From: a virus
Direction: 5' to 3' (one strand)
UHGV virus genome: UHGV-0084588
Length of the DNA: 64,000 nt
This document shows positions 2,594-57,922 of the stretch, in pieces. Under the pieces are notes generated by a model. The model did not search any database. It saw only the letters and a program-made list of their open reading frames with translations, and was not told the origin of the DNA. Within the stretch, counting starts at the first letter, position 1; the number at the start of each line of letters is the position of its first letter. A program made the position numbers and the translations under genes.

Positions 2594-2792
2594 CGGATAT
2601 ATCATCACGGCAATTGTTTCAACTGCGCTGATTGTAACAATGTTGATGTTCTACGTTAAGACTTCCGACGAATCACGTAAAGAATCTCTTTATCGTGAAT
2701 GTATGGCAGGTACTACGGTAGATAATCCACGCTACGCTGAATTGGTAATGGCGTGTACGGATTACGCTAAACGAATGGGAGGTGGAGGATGA
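2580..2792 (+). CDS. small membrane protein
   Basis: 70-aa ORF with one hydrophobic helix (YIITAIVSTALIVTMLMFYV); conserved Cys pair shared with the next gene. Confidence 0.5.
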   Translation: MKINDGYIITAIVSTALIVTMLMFYVKTSDESRKESLYRECMAGTTVDNPRYAELVMACTDYAKRMGGGG

Positions 2793-2986
2793 AAATTTGG
2801 TTACCGATTCTAGTTTTTATCCTTATCGCAGGAGCACTAGCAAGTGCTGAGTACGATAATCGTGTTCTAGAAACAAAGCGCGAACTGTATCAGGACTGTA
2901 TAAAGGATTACACACCGGGTACAGAGCTTCATGCACAGGCTGTAAAAAGTTGTGCACTGATGGCCGAATCGCAGACTCGTTCCTAA
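2789..2986 (+). CDS. small membrane/secreted protein
   Basis: 65-aa ORF; N-terminal hydrophobic segment (IWLPILVFILIAGALASA); similar layout to 2580..2792, likely a paralog. Confidence 0.5.
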   Translation: MKIWLPILVFILIAGALASAEYDNRVLETKRELYQDCIKDYTPGTELHAQAVKSCALMAESQTRS

Positions 2987-3360
2987 TGCGAATCTGGACG
3001 CTACAACTCGCTAAGTGGCGATTAGCTAAGCAGAAAGGATTTCGCGCAGTGGATATCACTGTGAAGTCAGGGCGAAAGGAACTCGCCCCAGACTGGGATT
3101 TCCTAATGGCGTATAAAAACTCTGCCCAAGACGCCGCCGCTGAGCGTGAATACACGATAAAGTATTTGTACAAACTCGAACGACTGTTAGATACCGATGC
3201 CGAAACGTTGGTCTCGTTGCTTAGACACGAAGATTTGGTTTTGATGTGCTATTGTCCCGCAGGTAAGTTTTGTCATCGTCACCTACTGGCGAACAAACTT
3301 CAAGAAGTGGGAATGACGTTCGGTATCGATGTTGAGTTATGTGGAGAACTAACGGTCTGA
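2986..3360 (+). CDS. hypothetical protein with Cys/His cluster
   Basis: Start set to the ATG at 2986 overlapping the upstream stop (TAATG); C-terminal CYCPAGKFCHRH motif suggests metal binding; followed by a strong terminator. Confidence 0.5.
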   Translation: MRIWTLQLAKWRLAKQKGFRAVDITVKSGRKELAPDWDFLMAYKNSAQDAAAEREYTIKYLYKLERLLDTDAETLVSLLRHEDLVLMCYCPAGKFCHRHLLANKLQEVGMTFGIDVELCGELTV

Positions 3361-3383
3361 TTTGATATTTAGCTGCAAAATGA

Positions 3384-3431
3384 CCGCCTACCGCCCGATT
3401 CTATGGGCGGTAGGTGTTTTTATTTTTTTTT
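3384..3431 (+). terminator. rho-independent terminator
   Basis: GC-rich inverted repeat CCGCCTACCGCCC...GGGCGGTAGGTG followed by a T-tract of about 14 nt. Confidence 0.75.
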
Positions 3432-13279: not shown

Positions 13280-13281
13280 AA

Positions 13282-13563
13282 ATGTTAGATTGGTTGTTGG
13301 GTTTAATTAACACACGTCAACAGGAGCTTTATAAAGAAAACACGCGATTACGGCAGGAGCTTAGTAACAATCGTCAGACCAAACGACAATTAATTCGGAT
13401 GGTAAAACAACAGGCGCGTTGTATACGTGATATCGATTATCAGTATCACCGTCTGAATACCTTAGACCCAACAACAAAAGCCCTCGGTGGGACAATCGGA
13501 CACGCACGTAAAGTCAGTCACGATGCGTTAGTTCGATTAGATACAATAGAAGAGAAACTGTGA
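13282..13563 (+). CDS. hypothetical coiled-coil protein
   Basis: 93-aa ORF; GGGGGTAAAA RBS; predicted helical (NTRQQELYKENTRLRQELSNNRQTKRQLIRMVKQQ). Confidence 0.55.
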   Translation: MLDWLLGLINTRQQELYKENTRLRQELSNNRQTKRQLIRMVKQQARCIRDIDYQYHRLNTLDPTTKALGGTIGHARKVSHDALVRLDTIEEKL

Positions 13564-13605
13564 TATAACCCCTCTCAGGAAATCCTGAGAGGGGGGAGTA
13601 ACGAT

Positions 13606-15331: not shown

Positions 15332-15826
15332 ATGAACTTCACTAGACTTGATTACACTAACGAATTAGTCGACAAAGAAAAATACAAATTCACGATTGAC
15401 TTGGGTTACGGGCTGTGGGACGTAGAAAAAGATATTCTACACAAAGAATTCCGTGAGCAATTCGGTGCATTATTCTGCGCAGGATTCCGTAGAAATTCTA
15501 TTGATATCGGTTATGGTGCAACACCGTATAGCGACGAAGAAATGTTTACGCTGATAACACAGATTATCGGAACTCGTGTGGCTAAACGTTTTAATTATTC
15601 TAACGAACTTGTTTCGAAAGAACATTACAAGTTCACTGTTAGACTACCTGTTCCTCTCTTTAAAGAAGATAAGAATAGACTCTATAAAGCCCTACAAACC
15701 GAATTCGGTAAAACGCTCAAAATAGGGTTCCGCAGTCGTAGTATCGATATCGGAATTAGCGTAGACGTGTGCAGTGACGATGACCTTTACGAATTAGTTT
15801 CGGAAGTTATCGGAAAACACCTCTAA
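15332..15826 (+). CDS. hypothetical protein with internal tandem duplication
   Basis: Start at the ATG at 15332 (TAGGAGAATATACC RBS). Two ~85-aa halves repeat (YTNELVDKEKYKFTIDLGYGLW vs YSNELVSKEHYKFTVRLPVPLF; GFRRNSIDIGYG vs GFRSRSIDIGIS). Confidence 0.6.
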   Translation: MNFTRLDYTNELVDKEKYKFTIDLGYGLWDVEKDILHKEFREQFGALFCAGFRRNSIDIGYGATPYSDEEMFTLITQIIGTRVAKRFNYSNELVSKEHYKFTVRLPVPLFKEDKNRLYKALQTEFGKTLKIGFRSRSIDIGISVDVCSDDDLYELVSEVIGKHL

Positions 15827-28026: not shown

Positions 28027-28094
28027 TGATTACTCCAATTATTTCACGGTCAAACGGTCATTCAGGCTATAGAGTCTACCACTGGAGGGTTTAC

Positions 28095-28301
28095 TTACCT
28101 TCCCCCCGCACCTTTACTACAGCTACCACTGCACGCCCAGCTACAACTGCCGTTACAGTTATAGTGGGTTAATGGTAATCCTGCCAAGTTATTCGTCGTG
28201 GACACCGTACCTTGGTTAGCGATGTAGTTATTCGCGTCTGAGGTTTTGATGTAGCCTTCAACCTGACCGATTCTGTCTCGAATATTTTTGAGGGAAATCA
28301 C
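28095..28301 (-). CDS. Cys-rich leader/core small protein 3 (short core)
   Basis: GTG start with AGGAGGTGA RBS; leader MISLKNIRDRIGQVEGYIK..., then HYNCNGSCSWACSGSCSKGAGGR. Confidence 0.6.
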   Translation of the reverse strand: MISLKNIRDRIGQVEGYIKTSDANNYIANQGTVSTTNNLAGLPLTHYNCNGSCSWACSGSCSKGAGGR

Positions 28302-28311
28302 TTCTCACCTC

Positions 28312-45550: not shown

Positions 45551-45593
45551 CCTCCTACCCTCTAAGAGGGTAGGAGTAGCACGTTTTTTTTTT
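45551..45593 (+). terminator. rho-independent terminator
   Basis: CTCCTACCCTC-taag-AGGGTAGGAG hairpin followed by a T-run of about 11 nt. Confidence 0.8.
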
Positions 45594-45597
45594 TCGC

Positions 45598-45807
45598 TTA
45601 GTCTTTTTTGTAGACAATCGCGTTACCGTGCAGTTTGTTGTTGCCGGAAATACCGATAACTTTGAATGCGTCGCCGCCAATTTTTTCGGCTTCAGCAGCC
45701 AGTTTACCAGTTACATGATCAACGGTATCGCCGAAAGCGCTGACGTTACCGATTTTCTTAAACTCTTCTGGAATATGCTCAGCAGAAGAGAACTCTTTAA
45801 TAGACAT
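45598..45807 (-). CDS. DUF1471 (BhsA/McbA/YdgH-like) domain protein lacking a signal peptide
   Basis: Start at the ATG at 45807 (GGAGAG RBS); C-terminal ...GDAFKVIGISGNNKLHGNAIVYKKD parallels the BhsA C-terminus (...SFRITSVTGPNTLHGTAVIYK) as recalled. Confidence 0.55.
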   Translation of the reverse strand: MSIKEFSSAEHIPEEFKKIGNVSAFGDTVDHVTGKLAAEAEKIGGDAFKVIGISGNNKLHGNAIVYKKD

Positions 45808-46013
45808 AACAGCTCTCCATTTCAAAAGGTTAGTGGTCTAAGACCGACGTGTGTTACAACCGAAGCATAAGATAGCTCCTCCCCGTAGGGAGGAGTAGAG
45901 TGCGCGAAAAAAGTGGCCTGCTTAACTAAACGATGGGTTTAAGAAAAGTGTTGATAAAAAGTTTTACCAACGTCAGGTCACAATATATAAAAACAACGTA
46001 AGAAAAAGGGGAA

Positions 46014-46979
46014 TTATTGCGGAGGTGATGTCGGGCCATGTTTACCTTGGTGAATGTGAACGCTAAAGGTAATACCAGAAATAACGGCATCTTTAACCGT
46101 AAAGACACCGACGCCTTTGCCAGTACCGCCGTATTTGAAGTTCTTAGCGATTTCCAGATTACCGGTGAACATCGCTTCATTCCCTTCTTGTTTAAAGTTC
46201 GGCGTTTTAAATGTTGTCGAACTCCCTGCTTCCGTTAACCAGGTTTGTGTTTTAAACGTAACGGATTTCGCTGCTTCCGTATTGCGAACTTCGCATTTTT
46301 CATTAATTGTTTTCGTTTCCAGGTTAATAGAACGCTTTGAATAAATGAACGCATCTTCTTTGTTGATGTTCACTTTTGAAAGCATCGCATTCTCAAAACC
46401 TAAATCGTCTTCCACCGAGTTAATGTAATACTTATTCCCTTTGTGGTCAACACACTGCCACGTGCCATTTGCATTATCAAACTGAAATAACCACGCCGCT
46501 TTCTCGCCGTTCACCATACTTGTTCTTAGCGTGATATGTTTGTCAATCGTCGAGATATTCAACACATACGCATTGGACAGGTCATCCGCCATCTGGTTTT
46601 CAGGGTCAGCAGACCACGCGTAAACCGCATCCTCTAATCGCTTAACGTTAGCGAAGTTCAGATCAATCCAAAAATAAATATCGGTTTTCCCCAAACGTAA
46701 CAAGATAACGTAATCTTCTCGTTTAACGTCAGGGGAATTAATTCGGTTGGAGTTAAACTTCCACCACTTTGCTGTTATCGTGTTACCCGTCTTAATGGTT
46801 AGGTTATCTGTTGCACCAGACGTTTCATGCGTCTTTTCAGTTGCTGAAGAAACAGATTGCACCACGGTAGGGTTAGCAAAGTTGGTTTCAATTGGTATCA
46901 CTTTTACCCGATCTGTACCACGGGGTTTGTCTTCCGCGACGATACCAATTGAGAAAAAATCAACACTGGATTTCTCCAT
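46014..46979 (-). CDS. possible baseplate central spike protein (gpV/gp138-like)
   Basis: 321 aa; N-terminal GIVAEDKPRGTDRVKVIPIE resembles the OB-fold start of spike proteins; C-terminal SVHIHQGKHG His cluster as at spike tips. Confidence 0.4.
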   Translation of the reverse strand: MEKSSVDFFSIGIVAEDKPRGTDRVKVIPIETNFANPTVVQSVSSATEKTHETSGATDNLTIKTGNTITAKWWKFNSNRINSPDVKREDYVILLRLGKTDIYFWIDLNFANVKRLEDAVYAWSADPENQMADDLSNAYVLNISTIDKHITLRTSMVNGEKAAWLFQFDNANGTWQCVDHKGNKYYINSVEDDLGFENAMLSKVNINKEDAFIYSKRSINLETKTINEKCEVRNTEAAKSVTFKTQTWLTEAGSSTTFKTPNFKQEGNEAMFTGNLEIAKNFKYGGTGKGVGVFTVKDAVISGITFSVHIHQGKHGPTSPPQ

Positions 46980-47007
46980 CGGGACGTTCCTTAGATCGGA
47001 ATTGAAT

Positions 47008-47033
47008 TCAGATATATATTACTTAAGTGAATA
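47008..47033 (+). promoter_or_regulatory. conserved 26-bp promoter-like motif (copy 3) with downstream hairpin
   Basis: TCAGATATATATTACTTAAGTGAATA followed by an 11-bp stem (TAGGGACTGAA/TTCAGTCCCTA); unlike the other copies it lies about 390 nt upstream of the next ATG. Confidence 0.45.
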
Positions 47034-47398
47034 GGGACTGAAGTACCAGTTCAGTCCCTACGGACACGTTTCATTCGAAACGGATTGATTAAACCATTTG
47101 GGGAGACAGATCATGTCTACTAAAAAAAGAAAGTCTCAATGAGCTGCTCAAACGTCTTAAAGACTACACTCCATTTAGTACCTTCCGATAACAGGTACTA
47201 AAATTTTACAGTCTGCCCCTTTATTCTGCTACTCGGGATACCGGTAGGGGGTAGGGGGCATTATGTATACGGATATAAATAGCGGAGGTATACGTAGTAT
47301 ACCGACATACTCTTCCCAGAGGAACGTAGTGACTTCCTTATTCCTCTTCTGCAATCCATAATAATAGACTCCCCTTTATTGAGATTAGCGAGTAAATC

Positions 47399-48136
47399 AT
47401 GAGAGAATTATTAGACGATATCTTTACTAACACCAGTTTAGAACTTTCTTCTACCGTTGTTAACGAACTATTAAAACAATCGCAACCTGCTAAGTTAATC
47501 GATGCTGGAACAATTAAACCTGAAGATTATCCAGACAGTGACGTTATCGACTGTATGATTGACGAATACGTGATAGGCAGTTACGCCAACCGCGTCTTCT
47601 TCGTTATTAATACCGAAACCAGTGTCATGTTAATCTATAAGTTGATCAGTGATGCCGAACTTGAAGTTGTGGCTGACCACATTCGTCTTCTTGCGAACAC
47701 GCCTACTAGTATCGATGATGTGCTTATTGGGAACGGTTGGGCTTTACCACCACTATTCTCTTACTTCCCTCTGTTTAGAAATGGGATAGGGTTACTCCGA
47801 AATGCAGAAAAGCTTCCCGATAACGTCGAGTTATCACTGCTTGGACCCGGCATCGATCTTTGTCCATTAGAAGACGAGGGCACGCTATATGGTTTGCGCA
47901 TCTATGTTTCTGTGTTAAAGGGTTACCGCGTTATTGAACTGATTGCATCCGACTTAGCAAAACAGATCCCAGATGTGGAAACGATTTCTAAAGCCACCCA
48001 CCTGGTTGAGATTAACTCAGACGATCCCTTATTGAAATATCACGAGAAAATTGATCTTCGTAAAATCGCCACGATGAGAGGGTGGAGTTGTGCTGAGATT
48101 ACGAAGGACTATCTGCTGTTAATTAAAACCGCGTAA
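47399..48136 (+). CDS. hypothetical protein (paralog array member 1)
   Basis: 245 aa; C-terminal ...RGWSCAEITKDYLLLIKTA is related to the GW...QLLF.AD ends of the next three genes. Confidence 0.55.
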   Translation: MRELLDDIFTNTSLELSSTVVNELLKQSQPAKLIDAGTIKPEDYPDSDVIDCMIDEYVIGSYANRVFFVINTETSVMLIYKLISDAELEVVADHIRLLANTPTSIDDVLIGNGWALPPLFSYFPLFRNGIGLLRNAEKLPDNVELSLLGPGIDLCPLEDEGTLYGLRIYVSVLKGYRVIELIASDLAKQIPDVETISKATHLVEINSDDPLLKYHEKIDLRKIATMRGWSCAEITKDYLLLIKTA

Positions 48137-48166
48137 TTAAGAAAACCGAAAAAAGGAGAATATACC

Positions 48167-48721
48167 ATGTTTCAAACTGAACTGAAAAATGAAATTATCC
48201 AAACCCTTGAAAAAGGCGTAGGCGAACATTTCTTTGTCCGTCCTTATACCGTACTGACCAATACCATTATCCAGCCAGGTGCGATGATAGTAGGGGTAAG
48301 TGTACAAGCTGTAGAGGAAGCCCCGCTGCGTCGTAACATCACACGTAAAAACCATATTCCATTTAGAACGGGTTTTACAAATTACTTTCAGAGCTTACTG
48401 AAAGATAGCGTTTGGAAAACAGGCAGCTTCTTCCACGAAGGGAAGACTTCCACGCTGGTTTATAAAGAGAACACCAAGTATCTGGTTGATTTTCTCTTAG
48501 CGCGTCAATACGATTTCTTTCCTTCACCCACCGGTCTCACCCCAGACAATCCGAGTAAGCTGTTAAACCAAGACGAAGCTGAAGCACTGCGTGCACAACT
48601 GAGAAAAGAAGGTTGTGATGTCGATGACCATGAAACCTTAATCGGGGTTGCTAAAGCACACGGTTGGTATACCGTGCGTGTATTTGGGCGTCAGATGTTG
48701 TTCTTAGCTTATAACGTTTAA
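48167..48721 (+). CDS. hypothetical protein (paralog array member 2)
   Basis: 184 aa; AAAAGGAGAATATACC-ATG; C-terminal AHGWYTVRVFGRQMLFLAYNV. Confidence 0.6.
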   Translation: MFQTELKNEIIQTLEKGVGEHFFVRPYTVLTNTIIQPGAMIVGVSVQAVEEAPLRRNITRKNHIPFRTGFTNYFQSLLKDSVWKTGSFFHEGKTSTLVYKENTKYLVDFLLARQYDFFPSPTGLTPDNPSKLLNQDEAEALRAQLRKEGCDVDDHETLIGVAKAHGWYTVRVFGRQMLFLAYNV

Positions 48722-48732
48722 AGGATGGTATC

Positions 48733-49860
48733 ATGCATATCTGTCATAACGCACCGTCGCACAAACTTTATCTTGAATTGCTTTTCGAGGACTACAAGAA
48801 AGGGGTGCCGAAAATATTACTTAGCATCCCGCCTGATACGCAAACTGAATTGTTCGGTCGCGTTTTTGGTTGTACCGTTAACGCTTTGCCAGAACCAATC
48901 TGTGCGCCTGTGGATAATTGTGTTTTCGACGAACGAATTGAGGATTTTCAATTCACCTTTTACGTAAACGATTCTTTACTGTACGATAAACTCTATGTTC
49001 GTGAGTTGAAATCAAATCAGCGGTTAATGTACCGCGTCTATCCGCCCCACAGAGGGTCGATACTAGAGTATAAAATCAGACGGCTACCTTACGAGGGTGT
49101 GAATTTACTCGACCAGCAGGATATGGCTTTTCTGGAAGAACTCTGTGGATTTGAAATTGAGAAGATTCACGTAACCCAGGAAATATCCCGAAACGTACCT
49201 AGTCGTCATACCCCTTACGGTGGGTTTCCGTACGAGTTCACCGACACAGGACTAAGGCTCGTAACCGAATTTAACGACGTAATGTATTACGCAGTGTGTA
49301 TTGAACGTAAAGTAGTGGAGAAAGAAATGACAAGTACATTGAAAGAAGAATTAGCCCAATTCATTCGTGATGTTGAAGAGAAAAGCAAGAGCGATCACAT
49401 TTTCTCACAACGTTATCCTGAACTTATTGACGAAACCACCGATAGTGTCGTCGATGGTATACGCATTTTCCCAAGTGGTCTTGCAATTTACCGACTGCCT
49501 AGTGTTAATCAGCTTAAAGTCATGGAAATGCTAAAAGACGTTTTAGCAGAAGCAGGTTGGGAATATCGTTTCGATTGCAATTTCGAAGGGATGGCGTTAT
49601 TCGTTACAAAGAAAAATTATACGTTGTCAATCGATCTGCCCAAAAGTCAATATTACAGTTTCTTCCCGAAAGCGGATGACCGCACTGAAAAAGAACCTGC
49701 GATGTTACTTGATGCGGCAGAGTCCAATACGCTAATGATACATCTGCGGACGATTGATAAAGAGTTAACTACCAGTCATTTAACGACGATCGGTAAAGAT
49801 TACGGTTGGAAATCTGTCGAACCGTATGGCAGTCAGCTACTGTTTGTTGCTGACCTCTAA
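48733..49860 (+). CDS. hypothetical protein (paralog array member 3)
   Basis: 375 aa; C-terminal DYGWKSVEPYGSQLLFVADL. Confidence 0.6.
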   Translation: MHICHNAPSHKLYLELLFEDYKKGVPKILLSIPPDTQTELFGRVFGCTVNALPEPICAPVDNCVFDERIEDFQFTFYVNDSLLYDKLYVRELKSNQRLMYRVYPPHRGSILEYKIRRLPYEGVNLLDQQDMAFLEELCGFEIEKIHVTQEISRNVPSRHTPYGGFPYEFTDTGLRLVTEFNDVMYYAVCIERKVVEKEMTSTLKEELAQFIRDVEEKSKSDHIFSQRYPELIDETTDSVVDGIRIFPSGLAIYRLPSVNQLKVMEMLKDVLAEAGWEYRFDCNFEGMALFVTKKNYTLSIDLPKSQYYSFFPKADDRTEKEPAMLLDAAESNTLMIHLRTIDKELTTSHLTTIGKDYGWKSVEPYGSQLLFVADL

Positions 49861-49886
49861 TAAGTGAAACTACACTTTCTCTAACT

Positions 49887-49910
49887 GCCGCGCTTTAGTC
49901 GCGGCTTTTG
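49887..49910 (+). terminator. weak hairpin terminator
   Basis: GCCGCG-cttta-gtCGCGGC followed by TTTTGTT. Confidence 0.4.
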
Positions 49911-49928
49911 TTAAGAAGGAAAAAAGAA

Positions 49929-50708
49929 ATGAAAATCCATTTAGACGACCTCTTTAAAACTGAACCGTACATGGTTAAAGGTTCGCTGGCTTCATTGTTG
50001 CTAGACGATAGATACCATCGAACGCTACAATTACAATCGGTAGAAACCGCGCCAACGGGAATTGAAGACGTGGGTCTTTACCAACGTATCACTCACACAC
50101 GTGGAGAATATCGTCGATATAAACCCGATACACTGACCGTTAAGCTTTGGCAAGTGGGCACAGGCAAGGTATTAAGTTATCGCGCCGTTGGTCTGTACCA
50201 CGTTGAACGTGCTTACACATGGTTAGAAGAAGTTAAAGAAATGGATTACGACCAGCTAAGCAAAAGACTTCGTGACCATAACGCCAGTTTACCGTTACGT
50301 AATTATTTCTCCACAGTTGAAAATAGTCGTTGTTTCGTTTCTCGCGAATCCATGATATTACCTGGAACTGACGTTCAGACGACGCTAAAAGACGTGGTTG
50401 TAAAGAAAGTCTTTCATGAGTCTGAACACGTTGGGTTTCGTATCTATTTAACCCACAAGAGACCATTTACCGTGATTCATGTTGTTACCGTACCCGAAGG
50501 ATCAGCAGTCTCTCGGGAACTTCCTGATGCTCGCGACCGTTGCCCTAATGAGCCGCTCTACTTAATGTCAGGAACAAAATCAACCGCGTTGATGTCTCGT
50601 TACAGCATGATAGATGTTGTTGACGCTGCTATGAAGCTAGGTTGGAAAGAAGTGCAGCAACACGGTAAACAGTTGCTGTTTATTGCCGATGTAAAACTTA
50701 ATTATTAG
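49929..50708 (+). CDS. hypothetical protein (paralog array member 4)
   Basis: Start at the ATG at 49929 (AAGGA RBS); C-terminal KLGWKEVQQHGKQLLFIADV. Confidence 0.55.
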   Translation: MKIHLDDLFKTEPYMVKGSLASLLLDDRYHRTLQLQSVETAPTGIEDVGLYQRITHTRGEYRRYKPDTLTVKLWQVGTGKVLSYRAVGLYHVERAYTWLEEVKEMDYDQLSKRLRDHNASLPLRNYFSTVENSRCFVSRESMILPGTDVQTTLKDVVVKKVFHESEHVGFRIYLTHKRPFTVIHVVTVPEGSAVSRELPDARDRCPNEPLYLMSGTKSTALMSRYSMIDVVDAAMKLGWKEVQQHGKQLLFIADVKLNY

Positions 50709-57426: not shown

Positions 57427-57595
57427 TTGGTTCCGTCGTTTTATGGACGCGGCGGGGTTTGGTTTCATGTCCATTCTAGCGGTTCTTTATGTCATGTTTT
57501 GCGTGGTGATGATTTTATGGGTAGTTTCATCTTATCTGATTAAACTATCGTGGGGTTCAATTTGGCGTCAACGTGAATGCGAATGGCGGAATTAG
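57410..57595 (+). CDS. small membrane protein
   Basis: 61 aa with a hydrophobic core (FGFMSILAVLYVMFCVVMILWVVSSYLI); TTG at 57410 or ATG at 57416 as start; overlaps the end of the ATPase gene. Confidence 0.45.
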   Translation: MFMQTDWFRRFMDAAGFGFMSILAVLYVMFCVVMILWVVSSYLIKLSWGSIWRQRECEWRN

Positions 57596-57606
57596 GAGAA
57601 GGGAAT

Positions 57607-57705
57607 ATGGTTGAAGGGGTTCTGTTAACACTTGGTGCGATGTGGTTAATCGGTAAAGGTTTAAACTTGCTGGTTAAACAACACAGATGGGCGTTTGAAG
57701 ATTAA
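57607..57705 (+). CDS. small membrane peptide (32 aa)
   Basis: AGGAGAAGGG RBS then ATG; MVEGVLLTLGAMWLIGKGLNLLVKQHRWAFED; under 60 aa, so not in the ORF track. Confidence 0.35.
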   Translation: MVEGVLLTLGAMWLIGKGLNLLVKQHRWAFED

Positions 57706-57762
57706 ACGCCCAAATAATCCGGAAAATACCCTCCGGCGTGAGGGTATTACTAGGAGCAGAAA

Positions 57763-57891
57763 ATGACCTCGATAAACACTACGAATGTAGCGATATCCGC
57801 ATTATACGATGCGGAACTTTCATGGGGTGGATTAATAATCACCACGGCCATATTAGCCGCAGCGGCATTCGTCATCGCGCGTTGGTTTTAA
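57763..57891 (+). CDS. small membrane peptide (42 aa)
   Basis: TAGGAGCAG RBS then ATG; MTSINTTNVAISALYDAELSWGGLIITTAILAAAAFVIARWF; preferred over the overlapping 57738..57941 track ORF, which has no RBS. Confidence 0.35.
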   Translation: MTSINTTNVAISALYDAELSWGGLIITTAILAAAAFVIARWF

Positions 57892-57922
57892 TTTTACTTT
57901 TTTGCGTCTCTAAGGTTTGCAA

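What the first reader, a model, noticed from the sequence alone, without database searches (positions are those of the whole stretch)
46014..47398. Isolated spike-like gene with C-terminal His cluster and an unusually long, hairpin-rich upstream intergenic region
The 321-aa protein has a gpV/gp138-like N-terminal OB-fold signature and an H-x-H-x-x-x-H tip-like motif, but sits apart from the other structural genes. The divergent 420-bp intergenic region 46980..47398 contains a promoter-motif copy, three perfect 7-11-bp hairpins (including AGTACCT/AGGTACT and GGTATAC/GTATACC), a GGTAGGGG direct repeat and a TATAAATA box, suggesting a structured leader or small RNA.
Basis: partly seen in the sequence, partly recalled or inferred. 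Interest (0 to 1): 0.45.

Follow-up and report, generated by a model that had tools for sequence, protein, structure and literature searches.

The report
Jumbo-phage tail spike, conserved upstream element
The gene is the ordinary central tail spike of an SPN3US-like jumbo phage in its usual place, but the long gap upstream of it holds an unannotated, single-copy, about 145-base element whose hairpin is kept by compensating mutations across several phage genera; it is probably a structured RNA of unknown function.

Summary
ORF 46014..46979(-) is the central baseplate spike of an SPN3US/phiEaH2-like (phiKZ-related) jumbo phage. It is homologous in sequence and fold to phiKZ gp164 and carries a fused Mu gp45-like tip with an invariant HxH. 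It is not isolated: the spike's left-hand neighbours keep the same order and orientation in all nine annotated relatives read that carry the element (seven records plus phiEaH2 and SPN3US).

The 419-bp gap has three parts:
- A clade-specific rightward cassette: an early-promoter motif, the 5' hairpin that follows every copy of that motif, and a 25-codon small ORF. The ORF is intact in three sister phages, frameshifted here and deleted in a fourth.
- A 10-bp hairpin at the end of that ORF.
- "Element X" (about 47204..47348).

Element X has conserved boxes (TTTTAC, GGGGG-N-GGGGG, CGGAGG, CGAC-NTCCTT) separated by variable hairpins. It occurs once per genome, next to the spike, in five named genera (Seoulvirus, Erskinevirus, Machinavirus, Wellingtonvirus, Derbicusvirus), the unclassified window clade and a Shewanella-associated contig. 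It has no Rfam match and is unannotated in most records. One hairpin covaries strongly (48 double-changed cells against 15.5 in shuffles, 0/500).

Best reading: a structured RNA on the + strand, either a small RNA or a leader. The function and the transcript are inferred, not shown.

The parts
46014..46979 (-). Central tail (baseplate) spike gene, 321 aa: N-terminal OB-fold, beta-helix, fused C-terminal apex with HxH (His308, His310)
   Evidence: - PHROG 3216, E 9e-114.
- phmmer against PDB: phiKZ gp164 (6orj), E 1.6e-21; Mu gp45 tip, E 1e-3 over residues 268-320.
- AF2 model, pLDDT 79. Foldseek top hits are 9xph_I (E 1.4e-16) and 6orj (E 2e-15).
- HxH is invariant in 11 relatives.
45876..45895 (-). 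Terminator-like GC hairpin (CTCCTCCC-cgta-GGGAGGAG) just downstream of the spike stop
   Evidence: (I20). Function inferred.
47011..47029 (+). Early (virion-RNA-polymerase type) promoter-like motif GATATATATTACTTAAGTG, pointing rightwards, away from the spike
   Evidence: - Four copies in the window, all on the + strand and upstream of + ORFs; 0 expected by chance.
- The same motif recurs in intergenic DNA of PCH45, CR5, EarlPhillipIV and others.
- It fits the AT-rich, roughly 10-nt early consensus described for jumbo phages (PMC7598289).
- The transcription start is not mapped.
47032..47060 (+).
   Evidence: - Every one of the four promoter copies is followed at once by a stem-loop.
- The stem is kept by compensatory changes in sister phages: GGGAC/GTCCC, GGAGC/GCTCC, GGGGT/ACCCC, GGGGC/GCCCC.
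47067..47082 (+). Second small hairpin CGTTTC-attc-GAAACG
   Evidence: Conserved in L004-L006; predicted in the MFE and centroid folds.
47113..47191 (+). Remnant of a 25-codon small ORF behind an SD-like GGGGAG. Frame 0 gives MSTKKRKSQ*. The +1 frame from 47135 gives LNELLKRLKDYTPFSTFR*. The frameshift lies at the A7 run 47122-47128.
   Evidence: - Intact 25-aa ORFs at the same place in L004/L006 (MSTEKKSGLDEVIELFKRYNPAIPR) and L005 (MFAEQKDGIEEVVRLFRHYSPYLPR).
- Deleted in L003.
- A homopolymer sequencing error cannot be excluded.
47174..47202 (+). 10-bp hairpin TTTAGTACCT/AGGTACTAAA over the end of the small ORF, followed by AAAATTTT; a possible weak terminator
   Evidence: I12. Sister phages have a different hairpin (GTAAT/ATTAC) at the same spot. 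The consensus terminator scan did not report it.
47204..47348 (+). Element X, a conserved single-copy noncoding element. Its pieces, in order:
- TTTTAC, 47204-09
- pyrimidine box Y1, 47215-29
- hairpin H0, 47229-47
- G-box GGGGGTAGGGGG, 47247-58
- hairpin H1, 47261-82 (contains TATAAATA)
- CGGAGG, 47283-88
- hairpin H2 GGTATAC-gta-GTATACC, 47287-303
- GACA
- a second copy of the core unit (GAGGAA-CGTAGTGAC-TTCCTTATTCC), about 47318-47348
   Evidence: - Found next to the spike in all relatives down to about 42% spike identity.
- H2 covariation.
- Covariance model: a single hit in the window, 47243-47320(+), 67 bits. The model recovers the held-out Phobos, Derbicus and Shewanella contig copies.
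- One copy per genome; no annotated feature under it in most records.
- No Rfam match.
47399..48136 (+). First rightward gene (245 aa, no family match), head of a run of paralogous genes. Relatives have a different gene here.

Best explanation
**Shown.**
- The window comes from an SPN3US/phiEaH2-like nucleus-forming-type jumbo phage.
- ORF 46014..46979(-) is its central baseplate spike. It belongs to the phiKZ gp164 family but, unlike phiKZ, has a fused HxH apex of the kind found in Mu gp45 and P2 gpV. It would therefore need no separate tip protein.
- It sits at the right-hand edge of the virion-protein block, where transcription diverges.
- The upstream gap is long because two things are stacked in it.

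**First component: a clade-specific rightward early-gene cassette.** It consists of the early promoter motif, the 5' stem-loop that accompanies every such promoter, a second hairpin, an SD, a 25-codon ORF and a closing hairpin. The cassette was inserted between the spike start and the ancestral upstream region. The small ORF is frameshifted in this phage.

**Second component: element X (47204-47348).** It is an ancient, single-copy, non-coding element that relatives carry directly upstream of the spike.

**Inferred.**
- X works as a structured RNA made from the + strand, diverging from the spike. Conserved purine boxes (GAGGGA, GGGGG-N-GGGGG, CGGAGG) and pyrimidine boxes (Y1; CGAC-NUCCUUUAUUCUU, which resembles the 16S anti-SD) are held in place by variable hairpins H0, H1 and H2.
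- The 3' part (GGAG-H2-CGAC-NUCC followed by a U-rich run) looks like a terminator. The most likely product is therefore a discrete small RNA of about 110-150 nt, or a terminating leader.
- The G-box can pair with either the upstream or the downstream pyrimidine box.
- What X regulates is unknown.
For: **Spike.**; phiKZ gp164 is the spike in the cryo-EM atlas (PMC13250141); the HxH rule comes from PMC12407873.

**Synteny.**

**Cassette.**
- Motif statistics.
- A hairpin follows all four promoter copies.
- Compensatory changes in the stem, and the small ORF intact, frameshifted or deleted in sister phages.

**X is real and functional.**
- The boxes are recognisable across five named genera (Seoulvirus, Erskinevirus, Machinavirus, Wellingtonvirus, Derbicusvirus), the unclassified window clade and a Shewanella-associated contig.
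- Within the window clade, X is 95-96% identical over 130 nt, while the spike gene is 86-95% identical.
- There is one copy per genome in 35 + 16 phage records and one in this window.
- Its distance to both neighbouring genes varies: about 27-40 nt from the spike ATG in relatives, 225 nt here. On the other side it lies about 45-150 nt from the next gene, sometimes with an early promoter in between. That argues against a fixed-distance promoter element.

**X is RNA-like.**
- H2: 6 of 7 pairs show double-sided changes. 48 double-changed cells against 15.5 +/- 3.1 in shuffles (0/500). Covariation 0.37 against at most 0.16 when the partner is slid (41 against 13.2 on the MAFFT alignment).
- RNAalifold finds H2 on its own.
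- Hairpins come and go as whole stem-loops at fixed sites. Derbicus has the bare core CGGAG-CGTAG-CGAC.

**Strand.**
- Local H0/H1 folds are more stable on the + strand in 32 of 39 cases and use many G.U pairs.
- A U.G pair in SPN3US becomes U.A in SPFM4.
- The alifold energy is -17.3 on the + strand and -11.7 on the - strand.
- The whole leader gives z = -4.1 on the + strand and -2.5 on the - strand.

**Terminator-like 3' part.** A hairpin of -5 to -16 kcal/mol is followed by at least 7 U in 12 nt in 17 of 26 sequences. The length of the U-run varies among SPN3US-like phages.
Against: - No transcript, transcription start or 3' end is known for X in any phage. No RNA-seq for this clade was found in the library.
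- Only H2 has formal covariation. H0 and H1 rest on hand-read stems and are weak or absent in the Kwan-type, Erskinevirus and Derbicus sequences.
- The G-box/pyrimidine-box pairings never vary, so they carry no covariation. The minimum-energy fold differs between clades.
- Whole-element MFE z-scores are modest: mean -1.2 on the + strand and -0.6 on the - strand.
- The + strand advantage is partly compositional, since that strand is G- and U-rich.
- H2 itself has no G.U pairs, so it does not name a strand. A DNA hairpin would covary in the same way.
- The consensus terminator scan reported nothing inside the gap.
- In the window clade and in Erskinevirus, the first core unit is not followed by a U-run.
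- No promoter for X has been identified. TTTTTAC is enriched in intergenic DNA (9 of 22 sites), but it may simply be terminator T-runs.
Confidence: 0.5

Rival explanations
1. Element X acts as double-stranded DNA. It is the control region of the divergent promoters: a binding site for a phage transcription factor or for the non-virion RNA polymerase, serving the spike and/or the rightward genes.
For: - X lies exactly at the point where leftward late (virion) genes and rightward genes diverge.
- Relatives have a phiKZ-type late start TATG about 20 nt upstream of the spike ATG, next to the TTTTTTAC end of X (motif from PMC7598289).
- The most conserved parts are short sequence boxes that never vary.
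Against: - The distance from X to the spike ATG changes from about 27-40 nt to 225 nt in the window clade. X nevertheless stays 95-96% identical there.
- The distance to the rightward gene also varies, and in L012, Derbicus, Phobos and the Shewanella contig a separate early promoter lies in between.
- Spacers of 5 to 17 nt between fixed boxes are tolerated only when they form a hairpin. That pattern is expected for a single strand, not for duplex recognition.
- No second copy occurs at any other promoter.
Confidence: 0.2
2. Element X is (part of) a replication origin of the R-loop type: a promoter followed by a G-rich non-template strand whose transcript stays hybridised and primes DNA synthesis, as at the phage T4 oriF/oriG origins.
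For: - X is single-copy per genome.
- It has two G5 runs on the + strand, with AT-rich hairpins beside them.
- It lies at a divergence of gene orientation, at the local minimum of cumulative GC skew (46-48 kb).
Against: - GC skew here simply follows gene orientation.
- There are no iterons, DnaA-like boxes or extended AT-rich unwinding region.
- The Shewanella copy lacks the G-box (GAGGAGGC in its place) yet keeps the rest.
- Related jumbo phages L155 and L162, and the more distant OBP, Kc263 and SPLA10, lack X altogether.
- The T4 analogy is from memory and was not tested here.
Confidence: 0.08
3. One reading: the whole 419-bp gap is a long structured 5' leader of the spike mRNA (- strand).
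For: - In sister phages L004-L006, the far side of the inserted cassette still carries the ancestral spike-proximal sequence (GTAAA..TACTATGATTACCGAGGAA, with TATG and an SD-like GAGGA). A spike transcript could therefore start about 215 nt upstream.
- The - strand also folds better than shuffles, z = -2.5.
Against: - In this window and in L003 the TATG is lost.
- In relatives, TATG lies between X and the spike, so X would sit outside such an mRNA.
- The stems with G.U pairs become C.A mismatches on the - strand.
- The promoter motif, the small ORF and its SD all read the other way.
Confidence: 0.07
4. The gap is decaying DNA, for example the wreck of the 105-aa gene that relatives carry there, and the hairpins are incidental.
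For: - Relatives (phiEaH2 gp096, SPN3US gp092) have a 105-aa gene right of X that this phage lacks.
- The small ORF here is frameshifted.
Against: - tblastn finds no trace of the 105-aa gene anywhere in the window.
- X lies upstream of that gene in relatives and is not part of it.
- X is conserved across genera and has a covarying stem.
- Hairpin lengths differ by non-multiples of 3, so X is not coding.
Confidence: 0.03

Closest known systems
phiKZ gp164 central spike (PDB 6ORJ, 9XPH)
   Same: Homologous over residues 4-259 (E 1.6e-21). The predicted fold matches: OB-fold plus beta-helix (Foldseek E 1e-16). Both are the baseplate central spike of a phiKZ-related jumbo phage.
   Different: phiKZ gp164 ends in a flat beta-helix capped by a separate tip protein, gp163.1. 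This protein carries its own C-terminal apex with HxH. The window clade also has a 15-residue insertion in the helix.
Iron-loaded HxH spike apex of Mu gp45 / P2 gpV / phi92 gp138
   Same: The C-terminal 53 residues align with the Mu gp45 tip: HIHQGKHG against HIHRGDSG, E about 1e-3. HxH is invariant in relatives. An HxH near the C-terminus predicts a tip-less spike with a buried Fe (PMC12407873).
   Different: The N-terminal two thirds are of the phiKZ type, not the Mu/P2 type. The apex is modelled with low confidence (pLDDT below 50, monomer model). Metal binding is untested.
Early promoters of RNA-polymerase-encoding jumbo phages (virion RNAP; phiKZ, AR9)
   Same: A highly conserved AT-rich motif upstream of presumed early operons, found repeatedly in intergenic DNA on the coding strand (description in PMC7598289).
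   Different: The sequence is clade-specific (CAGATATATATTACYTARGTGA). Here it is always followed directly by a stem-loop, a feature I did not find described. No transcription starts have been mapped for this clade.
Terminator-ended bacterial and phage small RNAs, and multi-GGA sponge RNAs (RsmY/RsmZ, CsrB)
   Same: About 110-150 nt, with several stem-loops and a 3' hairpin plus U-rich tail in most copies. GGA motifs occur at 4.5 per copy against 2.3 expected, several of them in hairpin loops (UUGGAUG, ACGGAUA).
   Different: There is no Rfam match to any such family. The GGA enrichment is only twofold, and GGA is not present in every loop. No promoter or transcript is known.
Attenuator or riboswitch-type leaders with alternative pairings
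   Same: A G-rich segment can pair with either an upstream or a downstream pyrimidine box. The downstream box also closes the terminator-like hairpin. Minimum-energy folds choose one or the other in different phages.
   Different: The alternative pairings are not supported by covariation, and no ligand or factor is known. In several phages X is separated from the next gene by that gene's own promoter.
Phage 'morons' (self-contained promoter-gene-terminator inserts)
   Same: The 47011-47202 cassette (promoter, 5' hairpin, SD, small ORF, closing hairpin) is present only in the window clade. It is inserted between conserved neighbours and is variably intact, frameshifted or deleted.
   Different: It is driven by a phage early promoter rather than a host one, and it encodes only 25 residues of unknown function.

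Membership tests
phiKZ gp164-type central spike | Significant sequence homology to gp164 and its relatives | tested here: met
   phmmer against PDB: 6orj, E 1.6e-21. PHROG 3216, E 9e-114. 290 jumbo-phage records by tblastn.
phiKZ gp164-type central spike | OB-fold followed by a beta-helix | tested here: met
   AF2 model, pLDDT 79, all-beta. Foldseek: 9xph_I E 1.4e-16, 6orj E 2e-15, followed by VgrG/PVC/AFP spikes.
phiKZ gp164-type central spike | Trimer at the centre of the baseplate, in the virion | not testable with these tools
   Shown for phiKZ by cryo-EM (PMC13250141). Here it is inferred from homology and synteny.
HxH iron-loaded apex spikes (P2 gpV, Mu gp45, phi92 gp138) | [quoted passage not shown] | tested here: met
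   His308 and His310 are invariant in 11 sequences. The third His (314) is not conserved.
HxH iron-loaded apex spikes (P2 gpV, Mu gp45, phi92 gp138) | Apex-domain homology or fold | tested here: inconclusive
   Sequence match to Mu gp45 residues 47-99, E 1.3e-3. The monomer AF2 model is unreliable there (pLDDT 36-43). Foldseek to 3vto gives E about 0.1.
HxH iron-loaded apex spikes (P2 gpV, Mu gp45, phi92 gp138) | Buried Fe ion bound by three HxH motifs | not testable with these tools
   Needs a trimer structure or metal analysis.
Jumbo-phage early (virion RNAP) promoter | Conserved AT-rich motif of about 10 nt repeated upstream of early operons | tested here: met
   Four copies in 64 kb, all on the + strand upstream of + ORFs; 0 expected. 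The motif is shared with related phages.
Jumbo-phage early (virion RNAP) promoter | Transcription start about 10 nt downstream, early timing | not testable with these tools
   No transcriptome for this clade was found.
Any described RNA family (Rfam 15) | Covariance-model match | tested here: not met
   - No hit at the gathering threshold in the window.
- No hit inside 46980-47398 at E up to 10.
- No hit on X in five relatives at E up to 5.
- No tRNA or tmRNA.
Structured functional RNA (generic) | Base pairs kept by compensatory changes | tested here: met
   Met for H2 only. 6 of 7 pairs show double changes. 48 cells against 15.5 +/- 3.1 (0/500). Slid controls reach at most 0.16 against 0.37.
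Structured functional RNA (generic) | Structure specific to one strand | tested here: inconclusive
   The + strand is favoured by G.U pairs, by 32 of 39 local folds and by the alifold energies (-17.3 against -11.7). Part of this is base composition, and H2 carries no G.U pairs.
Structured functional RNA (generic) | A discrete transcript | not testable with these tools
   No expression data are available.
Intrinsic terminator | GC-rich stem directly followed by a U-run | tested here: inconclusive
   The consensus scan finds none in the gap. In a custom test, the GGAG-H2-CGAC-NUCC hairpin (-5 to -16 kcal/mol) is followed by at least 7 U in 12 nt in 17 of 26 copies, but not after the first unit in the window.
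CsrA/RsmA-titrating sRNA (CsrB, RsmY/Z) | Many GGA motifs, mostly in hairpin loops | tested here: inconclusive
   4.5 GGA per copy against 2.3 expected, and 118 against 54 on the opposite strand. Some lie in loops, but not in all lineages.
CsrA/RsmA-titrating sRNA (CsrB, RsmY/Z) | Homology to a known family, or CsrA binding | tested here: not met
   No Rfam match. Binding cannot be tested here.

The most novel reading that the evidence does not exclude
Element X is a previously undescribed phage-encoded regulatory RNA, conserved across several genera of phiKZ-related jumbo phages of Enterobacterales. It presents SD-like/GGA purine boxes and a 16S anti-SD-like tail on a scaffold of hairpins. 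It would act in trans, for example as a decoy for a host RNA-binding factor such as CsrA or for the 30S subunit. Alternatively it would act as a bistable switch, with the G-box pairing to either pyrimidine box, that gates early rightward expression.
Probability: 0.25. Interest if true: 0.75.

Novelty: new member of a known kind. Interest (0 to 1): 0.45.

Why it matters
The spike itself adds nothing new beyond one point. This clade fuses a Mu/P2-type HxH apex onto a phiKZ-type spike, whereas phiKZ uses a separate tip protein.

The useful result is the upstream element. Non-coding DNA that stays recognisable across phages whose spike proteins are only about 42-72% identical is rare in phage genomes.
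- It is single-copy and shows textbook compensatory changes in one stem.
- It is missing from Rfam and carries no annotation in most of the 51 GenBank records that hold it.
- Nothing is known about RNA-level regulation in SPN3US-like jumbo phages.
- SPN3US has a genetic system, so X is a concrete, testable candidate.

The finding that every early-promoter copy is fused to a 5' stem-loop is also a simple, checkable rule for annotating early transcription units in this clade.

Tried and rejected
- **Nearest-relative searches.** megablast of the locus against phage genomes found no match, so the nearest relatives had to come from IMG/VR. blastn of the gap found only the promoter motif and one weak 43-nt match. 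X is too interrupted for word-based search across genera.
- **Loose IMG/VR pattern scan.** CGGAGGT-N7-14-ACCGACAT returned mostly unrelated contigs and wasted one scan.
- **Tighter metagenome pattern scan.** It returned 35 stretches, of which only 5 scored as real copies (46-72 bits, all on 240-249 kb jumbo-phage contigs or a short fragment). The rest scored 16-25 bits because the pattern forces the boxes. No new diversity was gained.
- **Remnant of the relatives' 105-aa gene.** None found.
- **Coding potential of X.** Rejected: there are stops in all frames, and hairpin lengths differ by 1-2 nt between phages.
- **A single consensus fold for all of X.** Not obtained. Minimum-energy and constrained folds differ between clades, and the meaning of my '<' and '>' folding constraints was unclear, so I draw nothing from the energies. 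mafft-qinsi was unavailable.
- **Whole-element stability.** The z-scores are weak.
- **TTTTTAC as a promoter.** It is enriched in intergenic DNA, but this cannot be told apart from terminator T-runs.
- **Dam/GATC clusters.** Present in ChrisDB-type copies but absent from the window copy, so dropped.
- **CRISPR-repeat mimic.** Considered from memory of I-E/I-F repeats. No convincing resemblance was seen, and it was not tested.
- **SPFM7-type records.** They show X in scrambled pieces. I treated these as assembly problems and did not use them.
Full report
**1. What the window is**

No phage in GenBank is close at the DNA level. The protein of ORF 46014..46979(-) finds 290 jumbo-phage records by tblastn. 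The best are Erwinia phages Stratton and phiEaH2 (72%), then Asesino, Salmonella SPAsTU and SPN3US (62%). IMG/VR holds four closer contigs (L003-L006, 93-98% protein identity). A 93%-identical protein cluster occurs in Salmonella enterica assemblies. The window is therefore an undescribed member of the SPN3US/phiEaH2 group of phiKZ-related jumbo phages.

**2. The protein**

- Pfam gives nothing. PHROG 3216 ('baseplate assembly protein') matches at E 9e-114.
- Against PDB sequences, residues 4-259 match phiKZ gp164 (6orj/9xph) at E 1.6e-21. Residues 268-320 match the C-terminal tip of Mu gp45 (3vtn/3vto/9ki1) at about 1e-3, with HIHQGKHG aligned to HIHRGDSG.
- An AlphaFold2 model built on 43 sequences (pLDDT 79) is all-beta. 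Its best structural matches are the phiKZ baseplate central region (9xph_I, E 1.4e-16) and the phiKZ central spike (6orj, E 2e-15), followed by VgrG, PVC and AFP spikes. The last 13 residues are modelled poorly, as expected for a monomer model of a trimeric apex.
- In the phiKZ cryo-EM atlas, gp164 is the trimeric central spike and is capped by a separate tip protein, gp163.1 (PMC13250141).
- Spikes with an HxH near the C-terminus are proposed to carry their own iron-binding apex and to lack a tip protein (PMC12407873). His308 and His310 are invariant in 11 relatives.

**3. Is it isolated?**

No. To its left lie:
- a terminator-like hairpin (45876-45895);
- a 75-aa YdgH/BhsA-like gene;
- a 420-aa protein (PHROG 3337, annotated as a virion structural protein in several relatives);
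- four virion structural proteins of 435-1728 aa.

These left-hand genes have the same order and orientation in phiEaH2, SPN3US, SPAsTU, Asesino, pEa_SNUABM_29, pEa_SNUABM_8, Kwan, Phobos and Derbicus. The spike is the last gene of the leftward virion block. To its right, genes run rightwards.

**4. The gap, checked**

- The + strand from the promoter to the next gene folds at -110.2 kcal/mol (z = -4.1). The - strand gives z = -2.5.
- There is no Rfam family, tRNA or tmRNA.
- All six frames contain stops.

**5. What relatives have there**

phiEaH2 and SPN3US have about 180 bp and then a 105-aa gene diverging from the spike. That gene has left no trace in the window.

The 180 bp, however, share a set of boxes with the window's 47204-47348. 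The same boxes turned up upstream of the spike in every relative down to about 42% spike identity, and in a Shewanella-associated contig at 47%. Segmenting 26 distinct copies at the boxes gives a clean picture:

TTTTTTAC(R) - about 35-45 nt (a pyrimidine-rich stretch, then a small hairpin H0, often with a GNRA-like loop and a GAGGGA box) - GGGGG-N2-4-GGGGG - 9 to 26 nt (hairpin H1, or nothing) - CGGAG - 5 to 17 nt (hairpin H2) - CGAC-N-TCCTT(T)ATTCTT.

I call this element X.
- Derbicus and Phobos have the bare core CGGAG-CGTAG-CGAC. Other clades carry a stem inserted around that CGTAG.
- In the window clade and in Erskinevirus, the core unit is duplicated in tandem.
- More distant jumbo phages (OBP, Kc263, SPLA10, Yong MS32) have an SbcC/SMC gene 20-70 nt from the spike and no X.
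- Two metagenomic relatives at 43% also lack it.

**6. Is X more than sequence conservation?**

- On a MAFFT alignment of 20 copies, H2 plus the three invariant flanking pairs are 88% paired. Six of the seven H2 pairs show changes on both sides: 41 such cells against 13.2 +/- 3.0 in shuffles (0/500). The covariation score is 0.43, against at most 0.20 when the partner is slid.
- On 26 distinct copies aligned to a covariance model, the figures are 48 against 15.5 +/- 3.1 (0/500), and 0.37 against at most 0.16.
- RNAalifold predicts the base of H2 on its own.
- Stem variants include GTATAC/GTATAC, GTATCC/GGATAC, GTGAC/GTCAC, GTAGC/GCTAC, GTACTCT/AGAGTAC, GTACCC/GGGTAC, GAG/CTC, GGG/CCC, TCT/AGA and GAT/ATC.
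- The model, built without Phobos, Derbicus and the Shewanella contig, finds each of them at the expected place and orientation (E 3e-6 to 5e-8). It finds exactly one hit in the 64-kb window (47243-47320, + strand, 67 bits) and none in phages judged to lack X or in control loci.
- blastn with the SPN3US and ChrisDB copies finds 35 and 16 phage records. Each has one place per record, most with no annotated feature under the match.
- A metagenome pattern scan added only jumbo-phage contigs.
- Within the window clade, X is 95-96% identical over 130 nt, while the spike gene is 86-95% identical.
- Across genera, X is not more conserved than the spike overall (46-73% against 55-69%). What persists is the boxes and the hairpin positions.

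**7. Which strand, and RNA or DNA?**

In favour of + strand RNA:
- Local folds of H0 and H1 are more stable on the + strand in 32 of 39 cases and use many G.U pairs. The ChrisDB H1, for example, has 12 bp with 4 G.U, against 7 bp on the other strand.
- Homologous H1 pairs differ between ChrisDB and SPN3US by C.G to U.G and G.U to A.U. A U.G pair in SPN3US is U.A in SPFM4 and SPLA1a.
- RNAalifold on my anchored alignment gives -17.3 for the + strand and -11.7 for the - strand.
- Whole stem-loops are present or absent at fixed sites between invariant boxes. That is how structured RNAs vary, and it is hard to reconcile with recognition of duplex DNA.
- The distance from X to either neighbouring gene is not fixed.

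Against:
- Only H2 has formal support, and it has no G.U pairs.
- Whole-element z-scores are modest.
- The + strand is G- and U-rich, which favours folding in any case.
- Predicted global folds differ between clades. The G-box pairs with the downstream pyrimidine box in some and with the upstream one in others.
- No transcript is known.

**8. Hints about mechanism (all inferred)**

- The 3' part, GGAG-H2-CGAC-NUCC followed by UUUAUUCUUUU, resembles an intrinsic terminator in 17 of 26 copies. The U-run length varies among SPN3US-like phages.
- In L012 a further hairpin with a T-run, and then an early promoter, follow X. X cannot be the leader of the next gene there.
- The downstream box equals or resembles the 16S anti-SD (Phobos has GACCUCCUUA), and the purine boxes are SD-like.
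- GGA motifs occur at twice the expected rate.

These features fit a small RNA of about 110-150 nt, or a terminating leader, with competing purine-pyrimidine pairings. None of them identifies a target.

**9. The rest of the gap**

*The promoter motif and its hairpin.* The motif at 47011-47029 has three further copies in the window, all on the + strand ahead of + ORFs, and it recurs in related phages. It fits the description of jumbo-phage early promoters (PMC7598289). Each of the four copies is followed immediately by a stem-loop. In sister phages its stem is kept by compensatory changes.

*The small ORF.* Next come a 6-bp hairpin, an SD-like GGGGAG and an ATG at 47113.
- In L004/L006 and L005 this opens a 25-codon ORF. 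The two peptides are 48% identical, have the same length, and both end in PR.
- In the window, the ORF is frameshifted at an A7 run and continues in the +1 frame to 47191.
- In L003 it is deleted.

*How the cassette got there.* In L004-L006, the sequence just left of X still resembles the relatives' spike-proximal TATG..GAGGA. The cassette therefore looks like an insertion between the spike ATG and its ancestral upstream region. Where the spike promoter now lies in the window clade is unknown.

**10. Verdict**

The protein part of the finding is correct but ordinary. 'Isolated' is wrong. The non-coding part is real and more interesting than described.
- One hairpin belongs to a promoter module.
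- One belongs to a decayed mini-gene.
- The third hairpin, together with the 'direct repeat' and the 'TATAAATA box', belongs to a conserved, single-copy element that is unannotated in most records and has a covarying stem.

I rate the reading of X as a + strand structured RNA at about 0.5. The main rival is a DNA-level control region. The function is open.

Noticed in passing
window 47113-47191 (+): A 25-codon small ORF is frameshifted at an A7 run (47122-47128). It is intact in sister contigs L004-L006 and deleted in L003. This could be real decay, a homopolymer sequencing error or, less likely, slippage.
   Followed up: partly
window 47399-50708 (+): Four consecutive genes (245, 184, 375 and 266 aa) share a C-terminal domain ending in about GW..V...G.QLLF.A (blastp E 1e-3 to 4e-10). 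The same C-terminus is in SPN3US gp091 and phiEaH2 gp097. There is no Pfam match. This is a paralogous family of unknown function right of the spike locus.
   Followed up: partly
window 45598-45825 (-): A 75-aa YdgH/BhsA/McbA-like (DUF1471) protein (Pfam E 1.7e-9) lies between the spike and the virion-protein block. It is conserved at this spot in SPN3US, SPAsTU, Kwan and others, and Kwan-type phages have two or three copies. This is a bacterial stress/biofilm-type small secreted protein in a jumbo phage.
   Followed up: no
window 11357, 15265, 47011, 51361 (+): Every early-promoter motif copy is followed within 2-5 nt by a 7-11-bp stem-loop. An SD and a start codon then follow: 69 nt (11357, 51361), 78 nt (15265) or 102 nt (47011) from the start of the motif. 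The mechanical ORF start GTG 15281 overlaps the motif. The real start is probably the ATG near 15343.
   Followed up: partly
window 46014-46979 (-), residues ~255-269: The window clade's spike has a 15-residue insertion (STTFKTPNFKQEGNE-like) in the distal beta-helix relative to all other genera, plus a clade-specific third histidine (HIHQGKH).
   Followed up: no
L163 (Salmonella phage SPFM7, LR535904.1 79199-82380): In SPFM7, and in several other SPFM records, element X and the spike region appear as scrambled, partly inverted pieces with odd 'hypothetical proteins' called across them. This is probably misassembly rather than biology.
   Followed up: partly
window, whole: TTTTTAC occurs 22 times. 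Nine of these are in intergenic DNA, which makes up about 8% of the window. Six of the nine lie on the + strand 20-100 nt ahead of + genes (18481, 22407, 47203, 53666, 54887, 61441). It could be a second promoter class or just terminator T-runs.
   Followed up: partly
L004-L006, just left of element X (equivalent to window ~47170-47203): On the spike strand, these sister contigs keep GTAAATTTTAAGTAATACTATGATTACCGAGGAAT. This resembles the relatives' spike promoter/SD region (TATG ... GAGGAGG), now stranded about 215 nt from the spike ATG. The window and L003 have lost the TATG.
   Followed up: partly
P0001: The 93%-identical spike protein cluster has 275 member sequences, many labelled Salmonella enterica, with contigs up to 220 kb. 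This suggests that phages of this clade are often co-assembled with Salmonella isolates (carrier state or contamination).
   Followed up: no
window 2594-3402, 57427-57916, 13280-13605, 28027-28311: Other long gaps between ORFs of at least 100 aa (809, 490, 326 and 285 nt) were not examined. They may hold small genes or further non-coding elements.
   Followed up: no
window 45552-45576 and 45876-45895 (-): Two GC-rich hairpins with T-rich tails lie on the - strand after the BhsA-like gene and after the spike. This suggests that each of these genes is a separate transcription unit.
   Followed up: no
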